Shown here piece after piece: positions 1 through 64,000 of a DNA stretch of 64,000 nt. A program made the translations under genes and the position numbers. Source of the DNA: Cyanidioschyzon merolae (Eukaryota). The stretch lies in NCBI GenBank assembly GCA_000091205.1, contig AP006486.2. One strand, given 5' to 3'. The notes under the pieces are model-generated. The model was not told where the DNA came from, did no database searches, and saw only the letters and a list, made by a program, of their open reading frames with translations. Positions within the stretch are counted from its first letter, which is position 1. Each line of letters starts with the position of its first letter.

Positions 1-531
1 GATGGAGACGGAATCGTTGCCAACATCCTCGAGAACACTGCGAACGCTCTGACATGGCCACAGATCCAGCCAGCGCCATCGCTGGGTGACTTGCTCTCGT
101 AGTAACTCGTTCACGTCGGATCGATCACCGCCGAATATCAGCACCAGCGTATATGGATCAGTGAGTTCCTGGGCGAGTCGTTCACGCCAGCGCTGCAGTA
201 GCTCACGCTTTTGACATTCGAGTTGAATTTGCCAGGACCGAAGCGGATGCCCCGTGCTCTGCAACGGAGCGAGCCATCCAAACAGCGCGGCATGCTCTGG
301 TCCCAGCTCTACAATGTCCGGAGATGATGCCGGTTGCTCGGCATCGTGCAGATGCCGTCGCCGTCGAAGTGCATAGCGTTGTGTCGTTCTAGTCGTGGTG
401 CCAGATTCATCCAAACCCAAGAATTCCCCAGTGAAGGAAGGACGAGCAAGCCAACGATATGGCTGAGTCAAAGCACGTACCTTACTAGGCGGAATCGCAT
501 CGGGCAACGTTATCGACGACATGAACGAGAA
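1..531 (-). CDS. Partial open reading frame running off the left window edge; hypothetical protein. Only the N-terminal side of the frame, about 175 codons, lies inside the window.
   Basis: Minus-strand frame is open from about 531 to position 1 (..ELLQRWRERLAQELTDPYTLVLIFGGDRSDVNELLREQVTQRWRWLDLWPCQSVRSVLEDVGNDSVSI). No recognisable domain and no start codon identified. Confidence 0.15.
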
Positions 532-2947
532 ACCCTAGAACGCTTTCGACGGCTGGGCTGTATCTTCCGGTCGCAGCAAGTAGCGTTGAAACCGCTCCTA
601 TCCCCGTTCCACGATAGACTGCAGTAGAGACTACCTTTGTAAAGACTGATCGCGCGACAACAACCCCCAAGCTTCTGGAAAACAGGGGCGGCAACCGGTG
701 TGCGCTCGAAGAGCAGGCCAGGGGTATGCTTGCACTGCCCCGCTGAAGCTGCAGCGTCAAGCCTATGTGGACACTGGCCTACGAGGCAGATTGCCGTTGC
801 TACTATTTAGAATAGCGGTTCCTGTACAGTTGCAAGCCTTGAGTGTGTACCAGGTCTTCGATAACAGCACGTCATCCCTATGAACCTGAAGTTCCCAGCA
901 AGGACTGCAACGCCAACACATGCCTGTTGCGCACGCATCAGATGCCGATAGATGCAATGCGTGCACTTTTGGCGGGAATGAACGAAACTGAATATCACAG
1001 TACAATGTATACATAAGCGGACAGCCTCCGATGCATCACGCGGCTGCCGTGCGTGCTGCACTGCAGACACTCATTCCCCAGCGCCGAAACGCTGCTTCTT
1101 CGAGAGCGACGCGCTTTCAATCGAGTAACCGGAGGCTTTAGCCAGCGCTGCCGTGTGTGTCAAGCGCTCTTCGGGGAACGTTTCGCGTAGTTCACAGTTT
1201 CGGTGGAGGAGAAGACGGCTTTTTGCTTGCAGCATGTCCGCGTCACGAGCCCAGTACGCTGGCTTTGCGGCCGTCCGCAACTCAGTGTATAACTTGTTCA
1301 TGCGTCGGTCCTCTGTGTTTGCGATTGTTATCGTGGCCCTGGGGTATGCTGGATCGGAGGCAATGAATAATTCAGTGGAGCGCGCTTGGGAGCGATACAA
1401 CAAAGGCAAGCTATGGAAACACCTCGAGGCTGAGGTGCGGGCGAAACAAGCCCAAGAGGCAGCCGCAGCTGTTGCGGCGGCGACGGCGTCGGACTCCGAA
1501 ACAGCTCAGACTGCGGACTGAGCGCGTGCTCTCGGGTTTAACGCTGTGCAGGCTGCGCGTTGGTTGGCGACTCTGCTCATGGTTGCGCAAAGAGCGCGTG
1601 GTTTCCGTTGGAAGCTTCGCACGTGATCCAACAAGTACTGCGCTCAGGTCACCGGCGATTCAGCTTGGACGTAAAATGCGAACTAGCATCGGGGGCATGC
1701 CGTTCACCCCCATGGGTTCCCAGCGCACTTCTCAGTGGCAACGAAGCATGCTCATGCGTGCGCATGTTTCGTTTTCTGTTTCTAGTTCGAGAACGGTGCA
1801 CCATTCGAGGAGCGTTCAGAGATCATACAGACACTCATTTCTCGACTCGCAGCAGACCTGAATGATTCTCATGATCGCACTGAACGCCAACTTGTTTCGA
1901 TCAAGTTGATCAGCGCACCGCACTGGCGAGACTGCGTTGCGCATAACGGTCGCCACATGAGCACGCAGTGCATATTTCTCTATCTTCTGCGTTGAAACCG
2001 GCCTGAGATCTCTCACTTGCAACGATGCAACTGGTGTCAGTGGTCTGATTACGGGGATGCTTGCCTTTGCAGGTCTCGAAAATTAGATCATTCAAGTCAG
2101 TATCCAGCGTTCTTCATCGTGCGGCTTGGGTTCTGCATTTGCGGAGGCCGGTCTTCACGGATGGCCTCAGTTCGACAATCACACCGAGAGCACTGGTAAT
2201 CTGTAGCGCTCTATACGAAACGCGCTTTTGCCCACTTGCAACCGATGGGCTCTCAACCGAATCTCAAAATTGCCATTCGATCCGCGTGTGGAACCCCTTG
2301 TAACTGGAGAACAGGGTCTGCTCCTGTTCTTGACGAGAGGCCAGCATCCTTTCGCCAAGGCTCGTCAAAGCGCCTCCAACTGCCGCCTGCAACTCAACGA
2401 AAAACCGTGGCCATCGTGTGCTATCGCAACAACGAGAAGCTAAAGCAGGCTGTAGTGGTTGTCTCGTACAGTGCAACTCCGGGAACGCCGCGCTCCATTG
2501 ACATTGACGTGTCGACCAGGCGCCTGAGCAGCGGCAGCCGCGTCGGCAAGCCTGTCCCCAAAAGCATCCAAAAGCATCCAAAGGACGTGTAGCACACATC
2601 CAACTGCACTGCACGCGACCAGACCTGGAACCTGGAGTCTACTGTAGTTTTTCGGCAGCGTCAGACTCGGTTCCCTTTGTAACAGCGGTCAGCGCCGTCT
2701 GACCGGTCGCAGTCGTCAAGACGTACGCTAGACGTGCAACGCTAGCGGCCACAGTAGACCCTGCAGACGCATATCCACAAGCCGCTATAAGAGTCGACGA
2801 GCACTAGCACTCACAACAACACAGGCTACTGGTCGCCCGTTCATTCGCTGCTGCCAGGCACTCAACCAAACTCGGCGAAAGACCCCGTTTTCTAAGACTA
2901 GAAACCCTTCGATACAGACAGCTTTTATACTCGCTGTACTTGCGACA

Positions 2948-4657
2948 TTGAACACCGTACATAGTACACAGCTTCTGACACCAGCGTTCCCGGGCGAGCA
3001 AGTCCCCACAGCACGTGCCCAGTGTACGGTACGTTTCAGGCGCTTCGCGCCGGGCGCTGGGCAAGCGTTCCCGGGGAAGCGACGCTTGCGGGGTACCCAG
3101 GATCACCCACTGCCACCAACTATGAACGTTGAGTATGGGAAACCTAATGGGAAAGTGTTCAACGACAGCATACACGGCCACATTTACATGCCAGACTACT
3201 GCGTGCGCGTCATCGATACGCCACACTACCAACGCCTGCGTGACCTGAAGCAACTCGGAGTCGTGTACTGGACTTTTCCTGGGGCGAGCCACAATCGCTT
3301 TGAGCACGGCATCGGAACTGCGTACTTGGCAGGTTCCATGGTCACCAATCTTCTTTCGAGGAGCGATTCAATTGCACCCCAGCTGGCCACCAGAAGCGGC
3401 CCTGCACAACCGAGCGAACGAGCAGCGACTCGAGCGCACCCGCTGGACCCTGTGGCGCTCACTTCGTCGACCGCCACCGACTCTGGCGCACGTCAAGGCC
3501 TGCAAAGTAACTGGCGGGATCTCGAGCGTGACTTGCGTCTCGTACGTCTGGCTGGACTGTGTCATGATCTGGGCCATGGACCCTTCTCGCACGTTTTCGA
3601 CCATCAGCTGCTGCCGCGACGAGGTATTCAGAGCGACGTGTATGGGCGCTTTCACGAGCAGCGCTCAGCAATGCTTCTCGCGCACATGTGTCAGCAGTTC
3701 GAGGTCGCACTAGACGCTATGGAAGAGGCGCTCGTTACTGATATGATTCTGGGTAGGCTGAGTCCGCAGAGTGCACGTCTAACGAACCGTTTCCTGCTCG
3801 CTGTGGTGAATAATCAACGCTCTGGAGTCGATGTGGACAAGTTTGATTACTTGACGCGGGATGCACGCTACACCCTGCCGCGCTCTGCAGGTTTCGATTA
3901 TGAACGCTTCCTGCGCTTCAGCCGCGTCATCGGAGATGAGATCTGCTACCACATCAAGGAGGCGAACAACCTGTACGACATGTTCAGTACGAGAATGCGC
4001 ATGCACAAAATGGTTTACAACCACCGAGCGGTTAAGGCCTGTGAGTTTATGATTACGGATGCCATGGTCTTGGCTGACGAGTTCCTGGGTCTTTCGCGTT
4101 CTATCCAGGACCCAGAGGCATTTCTTCAGCTCAGTGACTGGATCCTGAAGCGGATTGAGTTTTCCACGGAGGCGTCGCTTGGCGCAGCCAAGTCGCTGAT
4201 CCAACAGCTGCAACGACGTGAGCTTTATCGATTCGTTGGTGCCGCGCTGGTTCCAGTATCGTGTGCGTCTGTTAGTGCTGGTGACTTAACCGCCTGGCAA
4301 AGCGACGGCTTCGTTCAGTTACGACCAGAGGATCTCATTGTGCACCATCAAGTCATAAACTATGGCAAGGAAGGTGGAGCGGACCCCGTCGAGCAGGTGC
4401 GATTCTTTGTCGATTGGTCCACCGATGAGACCGTTGGCGTACGTCGAGAGCAGGTAAGTTCCCTGATTCCGAGCCATTTCGAAGAACGGATGCTCATGGT
4501 CTATTCACGTCGACGCGACCCGCGTTATGTGCAGGCAGCACGACAGGCGTTTGAGCGAATGCTCCAGCGGCAGGGCGGATGGAGTCCTCCGCATCGACAA
4601 GTTGGCGCTGGGGAACAGCTGCCACAACTCTTTCCTGATCGTAAAACCATCGCCTAG
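2948..4657 (+). CDS. HD-domain dNTP triphosphohydrolase, SAMHD1-like. The true start may be the internal Met near 3122 (MNVEYGKPNGKVFNDSIHGH).
   Basis: Motifs FNDSIHGHIYMPDYCVRVIDTPHYQRLRDLKQLGVVYWTFPGASHNRFEHGIGTAYLAG and LCHDLGHGPFSHVFD match the SAMHD1 HD-domain signature (H..H, HD, D). Single 569-codon ORF with a low-complexity insert. Confidence 0.75.
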   Translation: MNTVHSTQLLTPAFPGEQVPTARAQCTVRFRRFAPGAGQAFPGKRRLRGTQDHPLPPTMNVEYGKPNGKVFNDSIHGHIYMPDYCVRVIDTPHYQRLRDLKQLGVVYWTFPGASHNRFEHGIGTAYLAGSMVTNLLSRSDSIAPQLATRSGPAQPSERAATRAHPLDPVALTSSTATDSGARQGLQSNWRDLERDLRLVRLAGLCHDLGHGPFSHVFDHQLLPRRGIQSDVYGRFHEQRSAMLLAHMCQQFEVALDAMEEALVTDMILGRLSPQSARLTNRFLLAVVNNQRSGVDVDKFDYLTRDARYTLPRSAGFDYERFLRFSRVIGDEICYHIKEANNLYDMFSTRMRMHKMVYNHRAVKACEFMITDAMVLADEFLGLSRSIQDPEAFLQLSDWILKRIEFSTEASLGAAKSLIQQLQRRELYRFVGAALVPVSCASVSAGDLTAWQSDGFVQLRPEDLIVHHQVINYGKEGGADPVEQVRFFVDWSTDETVGVRREQVSSLIPSHFEERMLMVYSRRRDPRYVQAARQAFERMLQRQGGWSPPHRQVGAGEQLPQLFPDRKTIA

Positions 4658-22179: not shown

Positions 22180-22778
22180 AAACAAAAACGTTCAACGACC
22201 ATGGAGGGTAAATACGTATACCCACGCGCATGCGCCTCTGCGCCGTTCGTGACCGGTCCCCTGGCATCTATTTCGGTTTCTAACAGTACACTTCGAGCAG
22301 CAGAGGTTGCTAGATGAAGTTAGATCGCCTCAGCTCCCCTGGTCTCTCGTATTCAGCATCCCACATCGTCTGCTGCTGGGTGACGGCGCTGGTGTCTCAG
22401 TTGACGAGCTCCCTGCGTGCATTGAGGCTGGTGGAGCTCCCCAGCACAAGGAGGCCTCTAATTCGAGCCCTCTGTGGCACTGCAGTAAGGTCATCGTCCC
22501 GTAGCGCAAACGCCCTCTCTCGCCTATTTCCCCCTTCTTCTTCGTCGACACTTGCGCTTTTCCCTCGATGGGTGGAGAAAACAGAATTTTTCGTTTTCTT
22601 TCCCGGCAGCCGGTGATGACAGCCTTCGAGGATCCCCGACGCCCATCTTTGCTCCTTTCCCTTGGATTCTTACTTTTCTTCAAATGAGCGCACGTCGAAC
22701 GCATCCGCTCTAAACTGCGAAAACGAATTTGACGACACGCATCTGGGAGTCGGAGCACGATTGATGAGAAAGACTATA
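22180..22778 (-). mobile_element. MITE-like, internally deleted derivative of the Fanzor/TnpB-like element family (copy M1)
   Basis: Collinear, roughly 70-80% similar over its whole length to the element at 63392-63975. Shares the 5' terminal block (..tcttcaaatga.cgcac...gaacgc.tc...gaaagactat) with the Fanzor copies at 36.2 kb and 37.15 kb. Retains a degenerate stretch homologous to the region encoding the RuvC-III motif. Homology with M2 ends at both boundaries. Confidence 0.55.
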
Positions 22779-33689: not shown

Positions 33690-33846
33690 TCAAGCGCACG
33701 GAGGTCTTTTCGCGGTTGCAGCTCCCAAGCAAGCTCTGAAAATATGGTTCCGTTCAAAAAAAGATTCCCTGATACTTTACAAGTTTGTATATGTGTTAGA
33801 AAGCTGCAAGCGAAGATACCGGTCTCGAGCAACACGATGTTCGAAA

Positions 33847-34000
33847 GTCGAACGTCGCCACCGGTGTACAGTAGTGGCGACCGGCGCCCTAGACAAGAAG
33901 TCGCTAACGGATGTGCAGACATCTCCCAGCCGCTTTGGACCGGCCACCTTCTACTGGTTCCAACTTTTTCTCGTATAGTTCCACTTTGAGAGGTTGTCCG
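33847..34000 (-). ncRNA. Candidate omega-RNA (reRNA) scaffold region at the 3' end of Fanzor copy 1. This is a prediction and its extent is unknown.
   Basis: In TnpB/Fanzor systems the guide RNA scaffold overlaps the 3' end of the ORF and ends at the element's right end. Here a perfect 8-bp stem (gtcgccac/gtggcgac, 33853-33880) lies about 10 bp inside the point where copy 1 and copy 2 stop being homologous. Confidence 0.25.
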
Positions 34001-36124
34001 ATAAAGTTCTCTCTTGTCGGCTCTGGAGGTCTTTTCTCTAGCACCGTACATTTCCTTATATTGATGGCGGCATTAAAGTCTCGGTTCACAAACTCCATCC
34101 GTTTCTTCCATCATTGCTTGTTCTAACCAGCGCAGGTAGTCCACGAACTTTCGTCCTCCTTTCCATTTGCTCCTCCTTCAGCGGTCCGCACTTTGCTATA
34201 TGTTCAGGGGTCCGTTGGCACTTTTCTTTCTCGACCATCTGAAGTGTACAACCCAGTTCATGGTGTGTATAGGACGTTCGAAACTCATCTATCGGTATCG
34301 TAACGAAGCGGCTTGTGCACTCCTTGTACGTTCTTGTTGACGGAGCTGTTGTACTCCCTTTCTTCGACGCCCAGCGTCCTGCCCCATACGCTACCAGGAG
34401 CCTCTGACTTCCATCCTCCTTCAAGGCGTTCAACCGGTTGAAAAAATTCGCAACCGCCCGCTGTTTTCCACAATACAAATTCATTCGCAAACGAGCCCAC
34501 CGGGGCTTGGTATACTCCGCCCACAGTGCATCCCCATGGGCAACACGAACATCCATGAATTTCCGAAAAGGTTCAAAGTCCGCTCCTCGGCTCGTCGCCT
34601 CGCTCAAAGCTTCCAGGTGATCCTTCATTTCTGCATTCCACGGACCAATTTTCTTTCTTGCATTCACTATACCGGATTCTCGATAGTATCTCGCTCTGGC
34701 GAGCCTCAAAAGACGCATGTCTGTCTGGCGTAAGTTGCAATCAGTACCATCATCCGCACGCTTGGGAGCAGCGATGGTTATGATATTTGTGTTTCTAGGA
34801 TCCCCGCCAACGACAAAGTCGTTATCCTGCACCTCCTGCATCGTAGGACCCGCCTCCTTCTCATCTTCATCCTTCGTCACGGGTGCAGCCGAGGACGGAA
34901 CTGAACAATCCGCGTTCAAGCGCCGATTGTGTGCACACAGGGCTACCCCATCGGTTTTGATCATCCCAGTAAATACCTTTTGCTTGCTCACTTTGAGACA
35001 TTTGAAATCGAAGATGTTCTTCCAGTACGTCTTCCGGTTTTCACCGGAGAACTCCTCCCTGCTAACATCGAACTCCGGACAGATCTCCTTCATGATGCCG
35101 TAAAGGATTCTGGAGTCGATAGTCACAAAATGTGACTTGATCTTGCCCAACGGAACCACGTCGAAGCGCTTCCCTACTAGGAAAGCCTTCCGTCTCTCCC
35201 ACTCTTCATTTTTCCCGTTCAGCTTCATCTCTGCCTTGCGTTCGAGTTCTCGGTCCAGAAACACGAAATAGCACAGAATGAGGCGATCGTATCTTTCCTG
35301 ATCTTTGCTCAACTCTGATACCTTGTCTGTTGGATTCGGTAGCCCCAGTACCGCACGATGCTCTTGTATAACCGCACGGATCGCAGAAGCTTCATTCGTG
35401 GTCTCGTTTGACGCCTTCTTGTCGACAAATTCTACCTCATCTTCACGCTTGCGATCTTTCATGATGCCATTGATAATCGTCCATTTTCCATTGCGAGAGA
35501 TGCCCGGGTAGAGTGCAAACACGGTGCGTATCATGAAACGTTCGAGGTTCCCTGTCTCATGGTTCTTCAGATTCGTGAGGTACTTCATCGCCCCATAGCT
35601 GTAGATATCTCGGTCACCCTTGTTTCGAGTATCTTTGAAGCTGTAAAAGGGATGTCTTTCGTGTAGGGCATGTACTTGCTCATTTTTCCCTCCGTGTTTG
35701 CCCTGAACCAAGCATCAGGTGACGAACGAAGGTCTTGTCGAAGATCTCGTCTGGAATCTCGACTGTTTTGATGGCCGCCACGTCGCGATACATCTCCCTC
35801 GCCAGATGCATCAGTCCTGACAACGCCTTGACGATACTCTTAGAGTACGAGTCGAAAAGGTTGTGGATGGCCTCTTGAAACATTTGCTTGTAGAGATCCT
35901 TGATGTAATTAAGAAGACAGGCTTTCACCACCATCTCGTTGTACAGTCGTCTTTCTTGCCGCCTTCGACGTGGGGCCTTCCCTCTTTCGGTTCTTCTTCT
36001 CCTCCTTTTCTTCTGGACACGGCACTGTTTTTTGTTTTTGTTTTCCAGCAGCCGGCGACCCTGGGCCTCCAGGATCGTCGACTCAGTTTTTCATAACTTT
36101 CCATTTTTTTGGTTTTTTTGAAAA
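33904..36124 (-). pseudogene. Fanzor/TnpB-like nuclease pseudogene: RuvC-I, TS-x-x-C zinc-finger region and RuvC-III are present, and at least 3 frameshifts are needed to join the ORF pieces.
   Basis: ORF pieces 35925-36305 (K/R/E-rich NLS-like N-terminus), 35680-35934, 34086-35711 (541 aa) and 33904-34098. RuvC-I-like VVGGDPRNTNIITIA; IDEFRTSYTHHELGC plus CQRTPEHIAKC (TS-Cys zinc-finger position); and MEFVNRDFNAAINIRK, the canonical TnpB/Fanzor RuvC-III motif. Comparison with copy 2 locates 1-nt indels in an A5 run near 35700 and at ggaagaaacgg near 34100. Confidence 0.7.
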
Positions 36125-37245
36125 AAGCACTCTGTGAACGCTTCTCCAATATACTACGAAAAAAACACTTGACTAGACTTGTTTGAGTTTTGAAACATAA
36201 ATGAACTGAAAAACTATACTTTGCTACGTCCTGAACGGAAATCCGACTTTTCCAGCTGAATAACACGCTACTGATCAAAATCGCGTTTCCCTTCAACAAC
36301 GGCACCGTGCGCGTCGTGTCTCATGCCTGCCAGATCTCCCAGGTGCGCTCACTATGCGTCGATTCGTTTTCCGATGTCAACACCTTGCCATAGAACATAG
36401 AATCCAGATTGCGGGATGGATACTGAAATAAATGAGAGCGCTCATTATTCTTCGCTCCACCTTCAAGTTCCATTACTTATACTTCCTCTGGGATCTACTG
36501 GTCGTTTCGTATATTCTATCGTGCACCGAGTGCCTGCCTCGCTGCACCTGCAATAGCGCCCGTATCGTTGGAGCAGCTGCATCACCGAGACAGAAGAGCT
36601 TTGCCATACCACTGAGGGCGTCGGATCGAGGAATACTTCTCCTCACACGGACTCGGAGTGCATAATCACTCTGGTAACCAGCATGCTGTGCTTAAAGGCC
36701 TACTGCCTGTGGCAGCGCGGAGCGATGTACTAGGAGCCACTGCGACCAGCGCAACGCCCAGAAGCAGCGTACCCGCTCCTAGTCCCAGGATAAACTGCGT
36801 TGCGGACGGACTGCTCAGATCGGACCAAAGCACCTGCCACTGGGAGGAGCATGAAGCACGAGGCTAGCTGTCTCGTACGACTCATGGGACCTTCCACCAA
36901 GAAGGTAAACCTTCGGCAATATGGAAAGCTTTCCCCTTTTAACGTTTCTCGTAGAGGGGTAACGAAATTGTTATCTCATTACTGCGTGGTCGCTCGTTGC
37001 TGTTCTTTTTCCTAGAGCGCAGTCTGTTAGCACACCTGGGAGATCTGGCGGGCGTGAGACACGACTTGCAACTCGCAGTTGAAGCGAAACACGATCCTGA
37101 TCATTTGTAGACTTGTTACTGTGACTGGCAAGTTGTATTTGCATGAAAGTCGTAGCAAAGTATAGTCTTTCAGTTCTATCATGTCTCAACCACCAAGTAA
37201 CTGTATTCAAGTGATATTTCGCGGTTTATAGCGGAAGCGTTAATC

Positions 37246-39469
37246 GTGAACTCGTTTGCAAAAATAAATAAAGTTATGGAAATGAAAGTAGAGGATCCTG
37301 GAGGGCCTGTGCCGCCGCGTGCCGAGAAAAATACGGAAAACAGTGCCGTCCATGAGGAACAGGTGAAGACGGTGAAGCAAAAGGGGGCGAACCGACACCA
37401 GAACCTGCACGAAAGACGACAGTACGACGAATTGGTAGTGAAAGCCTGTCTTCTTGAACGTAACGCGGATCCCGTGAAGCAAAAGTTCTGAGATGCCATC
37501 AGAAACCCTACTGCATCTCACTCCTTGAGTGTTTGTAACGCATCTTCAGCACCAATTCATCTGACGAAGGAGATGTACCATGACGTGACGGACATCAAAA
37601 AAGTCGAGGCTCCGGAAGAATTGTCCAACGTGACCTTCCTTCGCCACGAGATGCTTGACACATGGGAAACAACGAGGAGAAATGAGCGAGTGCATGCACT
37701 CTACGAAAATTATGCAGAGTGCCGCTCCAACGGCACTCGATATAGGGGTGACTCAAATGTTCACAATTACGTGGCGATGAAGTACCTCTCGAATCTGAAG
37801 AACAAAACGACCATGAACCTGAAACGCTTCATGATACGCTCCATCTTTGCGCTCTACCCTGGGCTGTCTCGAAAAAAAAGGATATGGGCCATCATGATTG
37901 GCATCACGAACGATCGTCGGGATGCACAGGAGATCGAATTCGTGAACAAGAGGACATCACACAGGAGAAGGAAGACGCTTCTTTGATCCGTGCGGCGATT
38001 CATAAGCACCGCGTGGTTTTGGGGCTTGTCAACCCAACAGAAAAGGTTTCAGATATGAAAAAAGATGTTTTTCCCGCATCCTGCGCTAGTTCGTGTTCCT
38101 GAAGCGTGAACTCGGACGCAAGGCCGAAAAGGAGCTGAATGGGGGAAAAATGGAGAGTTGTTGGAACGGAAAGCTTTCGTACTGGGGGAACGCTTCAATG
38201 TCGTTTCGTTTTGCAACATCTAGTCAATGTTTGTTACATTCGACTTCAGAGTCCTTCATGGCATCATGAGGGAGATCAGTCCAGGGTTCGATGTGAGGAA
38301 GATACGGTTCATCGGCGAGAAACCGGGAGACATACCAGAAGAACATCTTCGATTTGAGACATCTCAAAACGAGCAAGAAAAAGTATTAACGGAGATGATC
38401 GAAACCGATGGAGTAGCCGTATTCGTACACTATAGTCGCTTGAAGGCAGATCGTCCTGTTCCGTCTTCGCTATCGCACTTGGCGAAACGTGAAGAAAACA
38501 AGGATGCGGATCCTGCGACACAGAAAGTGCAGGATAACGACTTTGTCGTTGGCGCGAACCCCGGAAACACGAATATCGTAACCATCGCTGTGCCCAGGCG
38601 TGCGGAAGATGGTACTGACGGCAACTTACGCCAGAAAGACATGTGTCTTTTGAGGCTCGCCAGAGCGAGATACTATCGAGAATCCGGTATAGTGAATGCA
38701 AGAAAGAAAATTGGTACGTGGAATGCAGAAATGAAGGATCACCTGGAAGCTTTGAGCGAGGCGACGAGCCGAGGAGCGGACTTTGAACCTTTTCGGAAAT
38801 TCATGGATGTTCGTGTTGCCCATGGGGATGCACTGTGGGCGGAGTATACCAAGCCCCGGTAGGCTCGTTTGCGAATGAATTTGTATTGTGGAAAACAGCG
38901 GGCGGTTGCGAATTTTTTCAATCGGTTGAACGCCTTGAAGGAGAATGAAAGTCAAAGGCTGGTAGTGGCATACTGAGCAGGGCGATGGAAGACCCGAAAA
39001 GGGTGTACGCCAGCTCCAATGACAAGAGCGTACAAGGAGTGCACGACGTTTCGTTACAATGCCTGTCGATGAGTTTCGAACATCGTATGCACACCATGAA
39101 CTGGGATGTACACTTCAGAAGGTCGAGATGGAAAAGTGCTAGCGGAGCCCTGAACATATAGCAAAGTGCGGACCGCTGACGGAGGAGCAAATAGAAAGGA
39201 GAGCGAAAGTTCGTGGACTACCTGCGCTGGTTAGAACAAGCAATGATGGCAAGAAACGGATGGAGTTTGTGAACCGAGACTTTAATGCCGCCATCAATAT
39301 AAGGAAATATACCGTGCTGGAGACGAGACCTCCAGAGCCGACAAGAGAGAACTTTATTGGACAACCTCTCAAAGTGGTACTATACGAGAAGAAGTTGGAA
39401 GCAGTAGTGGGTGGCCGGTCCAAAAAGACTGCGAGGCGCCTGCACATCAGTTGGCGTCTTCTTGTCTAG
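37246..39469 (+). pseudogene. Fanzor/TnpB-like nuclease pseudogene (copy 2), broken by several frameshifts and in-frame stops. The RuvC-I Asp is replaced (GANPGN).
   Basis: ORF pieces 37246-37491 (MEMKVEDPGGP.., NLS-like), 37525-37986, 37884-38102, 38227-38862 (..DNDFVVGANPGNTNIVTIA..) and 39260-39469 (MEFVNRDFNAAINIRKYTVLETRPPEPT..). There is a TAG where copy 1 has TGG at about 38862. Confidence 0.7.
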
Positions 39470-39522
39470 GGCGCCGGTCCCCGTTACTGTACACCGGTGG
39501 CGACGTTCGACTTTAGAACAGC
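39370..39522 (+). ncRNA. Candidate omega-RNA scaffold region at the 3' end of Fanzor copy 2 (prediction)
   Basis: Position homologous to the copy-1 3' terminus. The stem seen in copy 1 carries 3 mismatches here (gtccccgt versus gtggcgac), consistent with decay. Confidence 0.2.
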
Positions 39523-39563
39523 GTTGATGGCGCCGCTCTGAAAATTCGCGTACCTCCGCGAGG

Positions 39564-49914: not shown

Positions 49915-50329
49915 CGTCGAATAACGAGCAAGGAATGCGCTGCGGCTGGAGCGAAGCGCCGGTGGGCGTCCACCGGCGCAGCTCAGGGGGAACGATCGTT
50001 GAGGCAGGCGCTTTCGTGGCGTACGCTTTATGGGCCTTTACCTCGAGTGTATTTTATCCTCAGGTGTGGGTAACCAATTGCTTATCCATGGTGCATAGCG
50101 GATGCGTTAGAAGTGCGTTCATTGGAAGGAAGAAAGGCTGTCATCGCCGGATGCGATAAAAAATACCAAAAAAATGTCTCTTGTCGCCGACTGCCGAGCG
50201 ACGGCGATAAAGAAAAACAAGAGGGCATCTAGGCGAGGAAAGGCGTTCGCCCGGCCTGGCGATGGCCAGACTCTAGGGGTACAGGGGGGTGAGGGTGAGG
50301 GGGGTGTTCGACTCTGAGCAATCCCTGAA

Positions 50330-50625
50330 TTGGTGCGTTCAACCAGCGGCACTGCATATAAGGAGTTCATCAACGAAGACTTTTCACACCACGATCGATA
50401 CCAAGCGACGGGTGTGGTGCTGGAGACGAGAAACCCGAGGAGCTGACGCGATCCAGCCCAGTCGGACAGCCGCTCACGGTCGACTTGTACAACGACAAGT
50501 TGGAATCAGTACCAAGGGGCCGGTCAAAAAAAGTCGCGAAGCACCTGCACGTCGGTCTCTCTACATACACGCTACGGTCGGAATGCACTTTGGTGCTGCA
50601 TCGGTGGCGGCATTCGTACCGCATA
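50330..50625 (+). mobile_element. Solo 3'-terminal fragment of a Fanzor-like element (degenerate RuvC-III coding remnant plus 3' end)
   Basis: ttcatcaacgaagacttttcacaccacgatcgataccaag..gtgctggagacgagaaacccgaggagctgac..cacctgcacgtc..catcggtggcggcattcg is collinear with the copy-2 sequence ttgtgaaccgagactttaatgccgccatcaatataagg..gtgctggagacgagacctccagagccgac..gcctgcacatc..caccggtggcgacgttcg. The motif is degraded to FINEDFSHHDRYQ. Confidence 0.45.
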
Positions 50626-63391: not shown

Positions 63392-63975
63392 GGCGCTGCG
63401 ATCACAGAGGGCATACATAAACACCCACTCACAGACGCCTCCGAGCCCTTTTCGACGGGCCGCCTGCTATCGGCTACAGTTTTTATCGCAGCGCACTTCG
63501 TGTTGAGCGGCTGCCCGGTAAGCTTAGATGGCGGCAGCTCTGCGAGTCTCTTGTCGTCAGCACCGCACACATCATCTGGTATTGGTGGCAGCATTGAAAT
63601 CTGGGTTCTCGAGCTCCATGCGTTTATTGCCGCTGAATGAACTCGCCAGCGCAAGGATTCCTCTAATTTGTACCCTCTGTGGAAATACAGTCTCACCATC
63701 GTCCCGTCGGGCAAACACCTCTTCTCGCATATACCCCATCGTCTTCGTCACTTGCGTTTCTTCGCTCGATTGTCGGCGAGAAGAAGATTTTTTCGTTTTG
63801 TTTTCGGGCACCCGGCGATGATGGCCCTCCAGGATCCGCGACTTTCCGGTCCATACCTTCCCATTAGATTTTTATTTCTTCAAATGAACGCACTTTGAAC
63901 GCTTCTCCAATAAACCGCGAAAGCGCATTTGATGACACGGAAGTGAGCGTGCAATGCAATTAAGGTGAAAGACTA
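63392..63975 (-). mobile_element. MITE-like, internally deleted derivative of the Fanzor/TnpB-like family (copy M2); it may extend past the window end
   Basis: Collinear with M1 (22180-22778). Its 5' block is ..tcttcaaatgaacgcactttgaacgcttctccaataaaccgcg..gaaagactat. It retains a short ORF ending MELENPDFNAATNTR, a decayed version of MEFVNRDFNAAINIRK, and its antisense frame matches the copy-2 antisense frame (LVLVAALKSGFSSSMRLLP versus LILMAALKSRFTNSIRFLP). Confidence 0.55.
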
Positions 63976-64000
63976 TGCCAGCGCGAGCATATGCTAGACC

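What the first reader, a model, noticed from the sequence alone, without database searches (positions are those of the whole stretch)
33847..39522. Two Fanzor1-like (eukaryotic TnpB/OMEGA RNA-guided nuclease) elements arranged head-to-head as a 5.7-kb palindrome
The sequence shows a roughly 730-aa minus-strand gene (33904-36124) and its inverted plus-strand copy (37246-39469). Each has a K/R/E-rich NLS-like N-terminus, a RuvC-I-like segment (VVGGDPRNTNIITIA in copy 1, VVGANPGNTNIVTIA in copy 2), a TS-x-x-C zinc-finger region and the canonical TnpB/Fanzor RuvC-III motif MEFVNRDFNAAINIRK. This combination, in a eukaryotic nuclear context (Rab11, Maf1, PSMB4 and an intron-containing prohibitin are neighbours), is the signature of Fanzor, the eukaryotic homolog of IS200/IS605 TnpB and of Cas12. 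Both copies are decayed: at least 3 single-base frameshifts in copy 1, some in homopolymer runs, and stops plus D-to-N at RuvC-I in copy 2. The arms are collinear from the 3' ends (33847 and 39522) inward to 36365 and 37020, leaving a 655-bp unique spacer. No adjacent second transposase gene (TnpA, Tc1, hAT or Helitron type) is visible. This host lineage may not have a described Fanzor family, and the palindromic arrangement is unusual.
Basis: partly seen in the sequence, partly recalled or inferred. Interest (0 to 1): 0.85.

Follow-up and report, generated by a model that had tools for sequence, protein, structure and literature searches.

The report
Two decayed Fanzor1 transposons, already described

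Summary
The inverted pair is real: about 2.5 kb of collinear arms at 80% identity, also present in 98.7%-identical wild relatives. The Fanzor1 reading is right. A family profile matches only Fanzor1 entries in the PDB (E=1.5e-19 and 1.4e-10), and a confident AlphaFold model of an intact relative matches Fanzor1 cryo-EM structures over its full length (E about 1e-17). The host is Cyanidioschyzon merolae 10D, chromosome 4. Bao & Jurka (2013) already described its Fanzor1 family, CMe-1A (3169-bp consensus, about 150 copies). Copy 2 (36372-39524, +) is a full-length CMe-1A, 82% identical to that consensus. Copy 1 (36352-33834, -) lacks the first ~650 bp and is 84% identical. The "655-bp unique spacer" is the non-coding 5' part of copy 2. 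Both genes are dead. The arms are two different family members whose 3' ~1 kb was later homogenised, probably by gene conversion. Not seen in the papers read here: the last ~85 nt of the element form a conserved, covarying RNA structure, the expected omega-RNA scaffold. Also, one frameshift (near 34100) is private to the reference strain, and truncated-against-full-length head-to-head pairs recur elsewhere with other breakpoints.

The parts
36372..39524 (+). Copy 2: full-length CMe-1A element. Conserved sequence may start about 11 nt earlier, at 36361.
   Evidence: Published consensus nt 1-3145 aligns to 36372-39502 at 82.2%. The 3' boundary at 39524 comes from comparing independent copies.
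36372..37025 (+). It corresponds to the TE-N2_CMe-like 5' ~635-655 bp of CMe-1A.
   Evidence: It is collinear with the 5' region of at least 12 independent copies that have unrelated upstream flanks. It equals consensus nt 1-~655. It has no ORF longer than 79 aa. Bao & Jurka report that the 5' 635 bp equals TE-N2_CMe.
37276..39469 (+). Copy 2 Fanzor1 pseudogene, with several stops and frame changes and RuvC-I D->N (GANPGNTN at 38545-38574).
   Evidence: tblastn with the published CMe-1 protein: residues 1-592 in frame 1 (63% identity, through stops) and 593-734 in frame 2. Frame map.
39450..39528 (+). Copy 2 structured 3' end, the candidate omega-RNA scaffold. The predicted guide would start just after 39524.
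   Evidence: Covariance-model hit, 28.6 bits, E=1.5e-4.
33834..36352 (-). Copy 1: 5'-truncated CMe-1A, starting at consensus nt ~660. It is inverted and abuts the 5' terminus of copy 2 within about 10-20 nt.
   Evidence: Consensus 660-3145 aligns to 36348-33856 at 84.5%. Junction sequence.
33904..36094 (-). Copy 1 Fanzor1 pseudogene. It has a stop at codon 4, frame changes in the N-terminal K/R-rich part, near 35700 and near 34105, and keeps the D, E, D residues.
   Evidence: Repaired core is 77% identical to published CMe-1 over 679 aa. Longest open piece is 541 aa, 34086-35711.
33831..33908 (-). Copy 1 structured 3' end, the candidate omega-RNA scaffold. The predicted guide would be the flank below 33834.
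   Evidence: Covariance-model hit, 44.7 bits, E=1.3e-8. Pair statistics.
33834..34853 (-). Copy 1 side of the tract in which the two arms are each other's closest relatives (88-94%).
   Evidence: 250-nt window comparison against 77 non-orthologous loci.
38525..39524 (+). Copy 2 side of the same homogenised tract.

Best explanation
The locus holds two members of CMe-1A, the known Fanzor1-carrying, non-autonomous DNA element of Cyanidioschyzon merolae. They lie head to head between the VHL-domain gene CMD063C and a 242-aa ORF. Copy 2 is a full-length element: a ~655-bp non-coding TE-N2-like 5' part, a 734-codon Fanzor1 gene and a structured 3' end. Copy 1 lacks the 5' part, and its truncated end abuts the 5' terminus of copy 2. 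The two came from different sublineages of the family. Their 3' ~1 kb was later homogenised, most likely by gene conversion between the inverted repeats. Both genes are now pseudogenes.

Inferred from characterised Fanzor1 and TnpB systems, not shown here: in an intact copy the protein is a nuclear RuvC nuclease. It would bind an omega-RNA transcribed from the end of its own gene and the element's right end, use the sequence just beyond the right end as a guide, and cut matching DNA, which helps the element persist or spread.

Shown here: family identity, fold, catalytic-motif status, element limits, decay, and a conserved, covarying RNA-type structure at the 3' end.
For: - Host: neighbouring proteins are exact matches to C. 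merolae 10D proteins BAM79143-79146.
- Family: repaired copy 1 is 77% identical to the published CMe-1 protein over 679 aa. The published 3169-bp consensus aligns at 82% (copy 2, full length) and 84% (copy 1, from nt 660). The paper's description matches: about 150 copies, about 80% identical to the consensus, no TIRs, some copies intact.
- Fanzor1 homology: the 60-sequence profile hits only 9cf0 (PpFz1, E=1.5e-19), 8gkh (SpuFz1, 1.4e-10) and 9cer (GtFz1, 0.09) in the PDB. The alignments run through DPG, DEFRTS and NRD.
- Fold: the AF2 model has pLDDT 90.2 and pTM 0.86. The seven best Foldseek hits are all Fanzor1, E 5e-18 to 1e-15, TM 0.54-0.73; Cas12f follows at 2.6e-4.
- Catalytic residues: D, E and D are invariant or nearly invariant across the family.
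- 3' RNA: the covariance model finds one hit at the 3' end of nearly every copy. 86% of cells are paired against 36-58% when partners are slid, 11 of 19 pairs show compensatory changes, and no shuffle of 500 reaches the covariation score. Frequent U:G pairs fit an RNA on the sense strand.
- Two separate copies plus conversion: the 5' 1.5 kb of c1 and c2 are ~72% identical while c1 has relatives at 84-97%. In the 3' 1 kb, c1 and c2 are 88-94% identical, above any non-orthologue. Homology stops exactly at the right-end boundary on both sides.
- Decay is real: the frameshift near 35700 and the early stop are shared by the wild alleles.
Against: - Neither window protein could be modelled.
- Pfam and NCBIfam give no significant hit.
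- The canonical C4 zinc finger is degenerate in CMe-1 (two His and two Cys) and absent in more distant members.
- The structural alignment was fitted to the model, so pair counts lean towards it. Nothing shows that the RNA is transcribed or bound.
- The sharp identity step could also come from a chimeric founder element rather than conversion in place.
- How the element moves is unknown: no transposase, TIRs or TSDs, and no TAM could be derived.
Confidence: 0.9

Rival explanations
1. A true palindrome made in one step: an inverted duplication of a single Fanzor element, with the arms diverging afterwards.
For: The arms are collinear over 2.5 kb, and the outer kilobase is about 90% identical.
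Against: - The arms differ in structure: only copy 2 has the 5' ~655 bp.
- The 5' 1.5 kb are only ~72% identical, and copy 1 is closer to other loci (L071 97%, L059/60 91-93%) than to copy 2.
- Homology ends exactly at the element's right-end boundary on both sides, with no duplicated flank.
Confidence: 0.05
2. The head-to-head pair is a composite that forms or moves as a unit, because the element prefers to insert at the 5' terminus of another copy, or because its copying mechanism produces such pairs.
For: - L066/L020 carry a truncated copy (from consensus 740) inverted against nt 1 of a full-length copy. The breakpoint differs from the window's, and the 2.4 kb of flank has no VHL or Rab gene.
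- L071 has the same junction as the window.
- L022/L028-type copies have an inverted 5' fragment upstream.
Against: - Only three or four cases among about 60 distinct loci.
- The L071 flank is too short to exclude distant orthology.
- Copies also cluster tail-to-head (L050-L053), as expected if insertions survive only in a few tolerated places in a compact genome.
- Widespread mosaicism among copies could spread a junction by conversion.
Confidence: 0.15
3. One or both copies are working or domesticated Fanzor genes, and the apparent frameshifts are sequencing errors.
For: The frameshift near 34100 is absent from wild alleles. Copy 1 keeps D, E, D and a 541-aa open piece.
Against: - The A-run frameshift near 35700 and the stop at codon 4 are present in five independent wild contigs.
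- Copy 1 has a further N-terminal frame change.
- Copy 2 has several stops and D->N at RuvC-I.
- Only 7 of 83 family loci keep an open frame of 600 aa or more.
Confidence: 0.02

Closest known systems
CMe-1A / CMe-1 (Fanzor1 element and protein of Cyanidioschyzon merolae; Bao & Jurka 2013, Mobile DNA 4:12)
   Same: Same host. DNA identity to the 3169-bp consensus is 82-84%, and repaired copy 1 is 77% identical to the 734-aa protein. The ends match: the consensus starts CGATGACAAAACG and ends ...TTTTGAAAGGCG. There are no TIRs and no transposase.
   Different: Nothing essential; these are two ordinary decayed members. Local details not mentioned in the parts of the paper I read: the head-to-head juxtaposition, the homogenised 3' kilobase, and the covarying 3' RNA structure.
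Fanzor1 nucleases with solved structures (SpuFz1 8GKH/9CEU, PpFz1 9CF0, GtFz1 9CER)
   Same: Full-length fold match (TM 0.54-0.73). Same motif order: DPG ... (D)E(F/Y)(R/K)TS ... NRD. The strand that carries the RuvC-II glutamate in TnpB reads VVAYGAG here, and the invariant glutamate sits in the DEF motif, as in SpuFz1. Which strand carries that glutamate in TnpB is from my own knowledge. K/R-rich N-terminus.
   Different: Only 11-16% sequence identity. The zinc-finger cysteines of the TNB domain are degenerate or missing. RNA-guided cleavage has not been tested for this family.
Prokaryotic TnpB of IS200/IS605 and its omega-RNA
   Same: RuvC D-E-D nuclease, with a structured RNA encoded at the gene's 3' end and the element's right end, and similarity stopping where a guide would begin.
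   Different: No TnpA partner, no significant Pfam OrfB hits, roughly 300 extra N-terminal residues, and a eukaryotic nuclear host.

Membership tests
CMe-1A element (Bao & Jurka 2013) | DNA similarity (about 80%) to the 3169-bp consensus along its length | tested here: met
   Copy 2: consensus 1-3145 at 82.2%. Copy 1: consensus 660-3145 at 84.5%.
CMe-1A element (Bao & Jurka 2013) | Encodes the CMe-1 Fanzor1 protein (734 aa) | tested here: met
   BLASTP of repaired copy 1 against published CMe-1: 522/679 identical (77%). tblastn covers residues 1-734 in copy 2.
CMe-1A element (Bao & Jurka 2013) | Host is Cyanidioschyzon merolae | tested here: met
   Four flanking proteins are exact matches to C. 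merolae 10D proteins BAM79143-79146. The fifth, an FKBP ORF, falls in the cluster of BAM79150.
CMe-1A element (Bao & Jurka 2013) | No terminal inverted repeats, and no transposase gene of its own | tested here: met
   The inverted-repeat scan (minimum 30 nt) found only the inter-copy arms and no pair joining one element's own two ends. No ORF longer than 79 aa in the 5' part. Shorter TIRs were not searched for.
Fanzor1 (eukaryotic TnpB-like RNA-guided nuclease) | Significant sequence homology to experimentally characterised Fanzor1 proteins | tested here: met
   Family profile, which includes the window's 541-aa ORF, against the PDB: PpFz1 E=1.5e-19, SpuFz1 1.4e-10, GtFz1 0.09. No other family matched below E=1.7.
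Fanzor1 (eukaryotic TnpB-like RNA-guided nuclease) | Fanzor1 fold (REC/WED/RuvC/TNB architecture) | tested here: met
   Tested on the intact relative P0047, not on the window protein. pLDDT 90.2. The seven best Foldseek PDB hits are all Fanzor1, E about 1e-17, TM up to 0.73.
Fanzor1 (eukaryotic TnpB-like RNA-guided nuclease) | RuvC catalytic triad D ... E ... D in the conserved motifs | tested here: met
   Invariant or nearly invariant across the family. Copy 1 keeps all three. Copy 2 has N in place of the first D.
Fanzor1 (eukaryotic TnpB-like RNA-guided nuclease) | C4 zinc finger between the [TS][TS] motif and RD (from the Bao & Jurka motif definition) | tested here: inconclusive
   CMe-1 and the window copies have THHELGC...EKC (two His and two Cys). 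More distant members such as P0051-P0053 have no Cys or His there. The original authors nevertheless placed CMe-1 in Fanzor1.
Fanzor1 (eukaryotic TnpB-like RNA-guided nuclease) | Omega-RNA encoded at the 3' end of the gene and the right end of the element | tested here: met
   Structure only. There is a conserved three-helix element at the last ~85 nt, with 86% of cells paired, 11 of 19 pairs compensatory, and no shuffle of 500 reaching the score. Transcription and binding were not tested.
Fanzor1 (eukaryotic TnpB-like RNA-guided nuclease) | RNA-guided, TAM-dependent DNA cleavage | not testable with these tools
   Needs biochemistry. No TAM could be derived from the 5' flanks.
Fanzor1 (eukaryotic TnpB-like RNA-guided nuclease) | Intact open reading frame (a functional member) | tested here: not met
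   Both window copies are interrupted. They are pseudogene members, not active nucleases.
Prokaryotic TnpB / IS200-IS605 | Pfam OrfB_IS605 or OrfB_Zn_ribbon (Cas12f1-like TNB) domain above threshold, and a TnpA partner | tested here: not met
   The only hits are 8-12 bits on MEFVNRDFNAA, against a cutoff of 26.3. No TnpA-like ORF.

The most novel reading that the evidence does not exclude
The repeated finding of a 5'-truncated copy inverted against the exact 5' terminus of a full-length copy, in the window and in L066/L020 with a different breakpoint, may be a footprint of how this transposase-less element spreads. Candidate mechanisms are insertion aimed at the left-end flank, or copying that starts at the right end and aborts or switches template. 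Together with the covarying 3' RNA, this would make CMe-1A a tractable case for how Fanzor1 elements without a transposase spread.
Probability: 0.12. Interest if true: 0.55.

Novelty: already known. Interest (0 to 1): 0.2.

Why it matters
It matters little as a discovery. The family, its host, its consensus sequence and its Fanzor1 assignment have been public since 2013, and red algae appear in the 2023 Fanzor survey.

The work has three modest uses:
- It corrects the anatomy of this locus: there is no unique spacer, and this is not a one-step palindrome.
- It shows that Pfam searches alone miss this family. Pfam's only label for it is DUF8286.
- It gives a testable omega-RNA model and right-end boundary for CMe-1A.

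If anyone wants a Fanzor1 from an extremophilic red alga, the intact relatives found here (open frames of 687-847 aa in L058, L003, L019 and L027/28/57) together with the 3' RNA model are a starting point.

Tried and rejected
- Pfam and NCBIfam scans of the raw ORF pieces, the repaired protein and eight relatives gave nothing significant.
- Rfam on the whole window gave no hits.
- RNAalifold on the 296-column MAFFT block of 3' ends was uninformative, because coding constraint, gaps and flanks were mixed. I replaced it with a covariance model built on one subfamily.
- The search for a TAM or target motif in 5' flanks found only a T-rich, GATT-like stretch that may belong to the element, so no motif is called.
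- The search for a partner transposase in alternative 5' modules was negative. By eye, the L051 inter-copy region holds a host-type ORF, which I did not scan against Pfam. The TE-N2-like part has no ORF longer than 79 aa.
- I rejected the idea that L020, L066 and L071 are orthologues of this locus for L066/L020, which have no VHL, Rab or orf242 gene in 2.4 kb of flank. It stays open for L071, whose flank is only 35-58 nt.
- The H2/H3 alternative pairing around CGCC in the 3' RNA was examined by eye only and is unresolved.


Full report
**1. Observation**

An inverted-repeat scan and a pairwise alignment show two collinear arms, 36352->33834 on the minus strand and 37026->39524 on the plus strand. 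They align over 2486 nt at 80% identity: 87-91% in the outer 3' parts and 62-77% in the inner parts.

Six-frame translation traces one long gene per arm.
- Copy 1 consists of a 541-aa open piece (34086-35711) plus N- and C-terminal pieces in other frames.
- Copy 2 is broken by several stops and frame changes.

The arrangement is also found in metagenomic contigs from wild relatives that are 98.7-99% identical over 9.2 kb and carry the same flanking genes. So it is not an assembly artefact.

**2. What the protein is**

Single-sequence searches fail. Pfam, NCBIfam and PDB sequence searches give nothing significant. The only trace is an 8-12-bit match of MEFVNRDFNAA to the end of PF07282.

A database search with the repaired copy 1 found 54 relatives. 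A profile search then found 144 more, mostly intact proteins of 600-700 aa. Some of them carry a Pfam tag that another tool names DUF8286.

Profile and fold evidence:
- A 13-sequence profile hit only SpuFz1 in the PDB (E=2.8e-4).
- A 60-sequence profile that includes the window's ORF hit three Fanzor1 proteins: Parasitella (1.5e-19), Spizellomyces (1.4e-10) and Guillardia (0.09). Nothing else scored below E=1.7. The alignments run through DPG, DEFRTS and NRD.
- An AlphaFold model of the intact relative P0047 is confident (pLDDT 90.2, pTM 0.86).
- The seven best Foldseek matches to that model in the PDB are all Fanzor1 cryo-EM structures (E 5e-18 to 1e-15, TM 0.54-0.73). Cas12f follows at 2.6e-4.

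The acidic residues in DPG, (D)EF and RD are invariant or nearly so across the family. The strand that carries the RuvC-II glutamate in TnpB reads VVAYGAG here, and the invariant glutamate lies in DEFRTS, as in SpuFz1. Which strand carries that glutamate in TnpB is from my own knowledge. The zinc-finger cysteines are degenerate in this subfamily and absent in distant members.

**3. Host and prior description**

Four neighbouring proteins (Rab, Maf1, proteasome beta-7, VHL-domain CMD063C) are exact matches to Cyanidioschyzon merolae 10D proteins on a 513,455-bp record. A fifth, an FKBP ORF, falls in the cluster of the annotated C. merolae FKBP.

Bao & Jurka 2013 (PMC3627910) list one Fanzor1 family for this alga, CMe-1A:
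- a 3169-bp consensus and about 150 copies, each about 80% identical to the consensus
- no TIRs, and TSDs undetermined
- a 5' 635 bp equal to another repeat, TE-N2_CMe
- some copies still intact

Their supplement gives both consensus sequences.
- Repaired copy 1 is 77% identical to their 734-aa CMe-1 protein over 679 residues.
- Their DNA consensus aligns to 36372-39502 (nt 1-3145, 82.2%) and to 36348-33856 (nt 660-3145, 84.5%).

Jiang et al. 2023 also list Rhodophyta among Fanzor-bearing lineages. The finding is therefore already known.

**4. Anatomy of the pair**

Eighty further loci from hot-spring metagenomes fix the limits of the element.
- Similarity ends at '...GGCGT|' on the 3' side in essentially every copy.
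- The published 5' terminus, preceded by unrelated flanks, is seen in at least 11 loci.

It equals consensus nt 1-~655, so it belongs to copy 2.

Copy 1 starts at consensus nt ~660. This is a recurrent breakpoint: many copies start there behind other upstream sequences. Copy 1 abuts the first nucleotide of copy 2 within about 10-20 nt.

The arms are not a one-step duplication.
- Over the 5' 1.5 kb they are ~72% identical, while copy 1 has closer relatives elsewhere (84-97%).
- From about 34853 / 38525 outward they are 88-94% identical to each other, above any non-orthologous copy (84-89%).

I read this as two different family members whose 3' kilobase was homogenised by gene conversion. A chimeric founder element is the alternative.

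**5. State of the genes**

- Copy 1 has a stop at codon 4, an N-terminal frame change, a frameshift in the A-run near 35700 and one near 34105.
- The frameshift near 35700 and the early stop are present in five wild contigs.
- The one near 34105 is absent from the four wild contigs that cover it. They read GATGGCAAGAAACGG and stay in frame, so it is either a recent deletion in strain 10D or a reference error.
- Copy 2 has several stops and D->N at RuvC-I.
- Across the 83 loci, only 7 keep an open frame of 600 aa or more. This fits the paper's remark that a few copies remain intact.

**6. How it most likely works**

By analogy with characterised Fanzor1 and TnpB systems, an intact copy should make a nuclear RuvC nuclease guided by an RNA from its own 3' end.

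I tested the RNA part. I built a covariance model from 15 copies of one subfamily, with three helices. It finds a single hit at the 3' end of nearly every copy, including both window copies: 33831-33908 (-) at 44.7 bits and 39450-39528 (+) at 28.6 bits.

On the resulting alignment:
- 86% of cells are paired, against 36-58% when partners are slid.
- 11 of 19 pairs show compensatory changes, 8 of 10 in the terminal hairpin.
- No shuffle of 500 reaches the covariation score.

Frequent U:G pairs fit an RNA on the sense strand better than a DNA hairpin. The alignment is fitted to the model, so this is support rather than proof. Transcription, binding and cleavage remain untested, and no TAM could be derived.

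**7. Unexplained**

Truncated-against-full-length head-to-head pairs recur.
- L066/L020 have a different breakpoint (consensus 740) and unrelated flanks.
- L071 has the window's junction.
- L022/L028-type copies carry an inverted 5' fragment upstream.

Tail-to-head clusters also occur. This may be simple clustering in a compact genome, or it may be a footprint of the unknown mobility mechanism.

**8. Verdict**

The Fanzor1 reading is correct. The novelty claim and the 'spacer' and 'palindrome' readings are wrong. These are two ordinary decayed members of a published family.

Noticed in passing
window 63432-63976 (-) and 22214-22778 (-): Two small CMe-1A derivatives with the same internal deletion: consensus ~787-969 joined to ~2840-3083. 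They may belong to a short non-autonomous subfamily.
   Followed up: partly
window 50326-50568 (+): An isolated, diverged 3' fragment of CMe-1A (consensus ~2864-3092, about 67% DNA identity, 50% at protein level).
   Followed up: partly
window 34100-34110: A 1-nt deletion (missing C in GATGG-AAGAAACGG) is private to the 10D reference. The four wild orthologous contigs that cover the site keep the frame.
   Followed up: yes
L003 7224-7375; proteins P0001, P0007, P0012 (alignment A1 columns ~480-590): A variable number of tandem ~25-aa repeats (KHEE.KEA..ATQEVQDND.VV) lies just upstream of the RuvC-I motif in some copies. The window copies have one unit.
   Followed up: no
proteins P0046-P0173: The family is large outside Cyanidiales. 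More than 140 clusters of intact 600-700-aa proteins come from environmental assemblies, and there is a partial hit in Haematococcus lacustris. Some of them are tagged DUF8286, one is called 'transposase', and one carries PF07282. Distant members lack the zinc-finger Cys and His residues.
   Followed up: partly
copy 1, 36352-33834, in 250-nt steps: Copy 1's closest relative changes from segment to segment (L071 97%, L059/60 91-93%, L010/11 88% and others). This suggests frequent recombination or conversion among family copies.
   Followed up: partly
L051/L052 269-772 and 2139-4710; L050/L053 1306-1392 and 2130-4754: Tail-to-head clusters: the 3' end of one copy, including its RNA-model hit, lies 0.7-1.4 kb upstream of another copy. 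In L051 a host-type 271-aa ORF lies in between. By eye it looks macro-domain-like, but I did not scan it.
   Followed up: no
upstream of the core start (consensus ~660) in L008, L025, L040, L047, L052, L053, L060, L068, L083 and in L015, L018, L056, L073: At least two further recurrent upstream sequences (my classes B and C) replace the TE-N2-like part in different loci. Their nature and outer ends were not determined.
   Followed up: no
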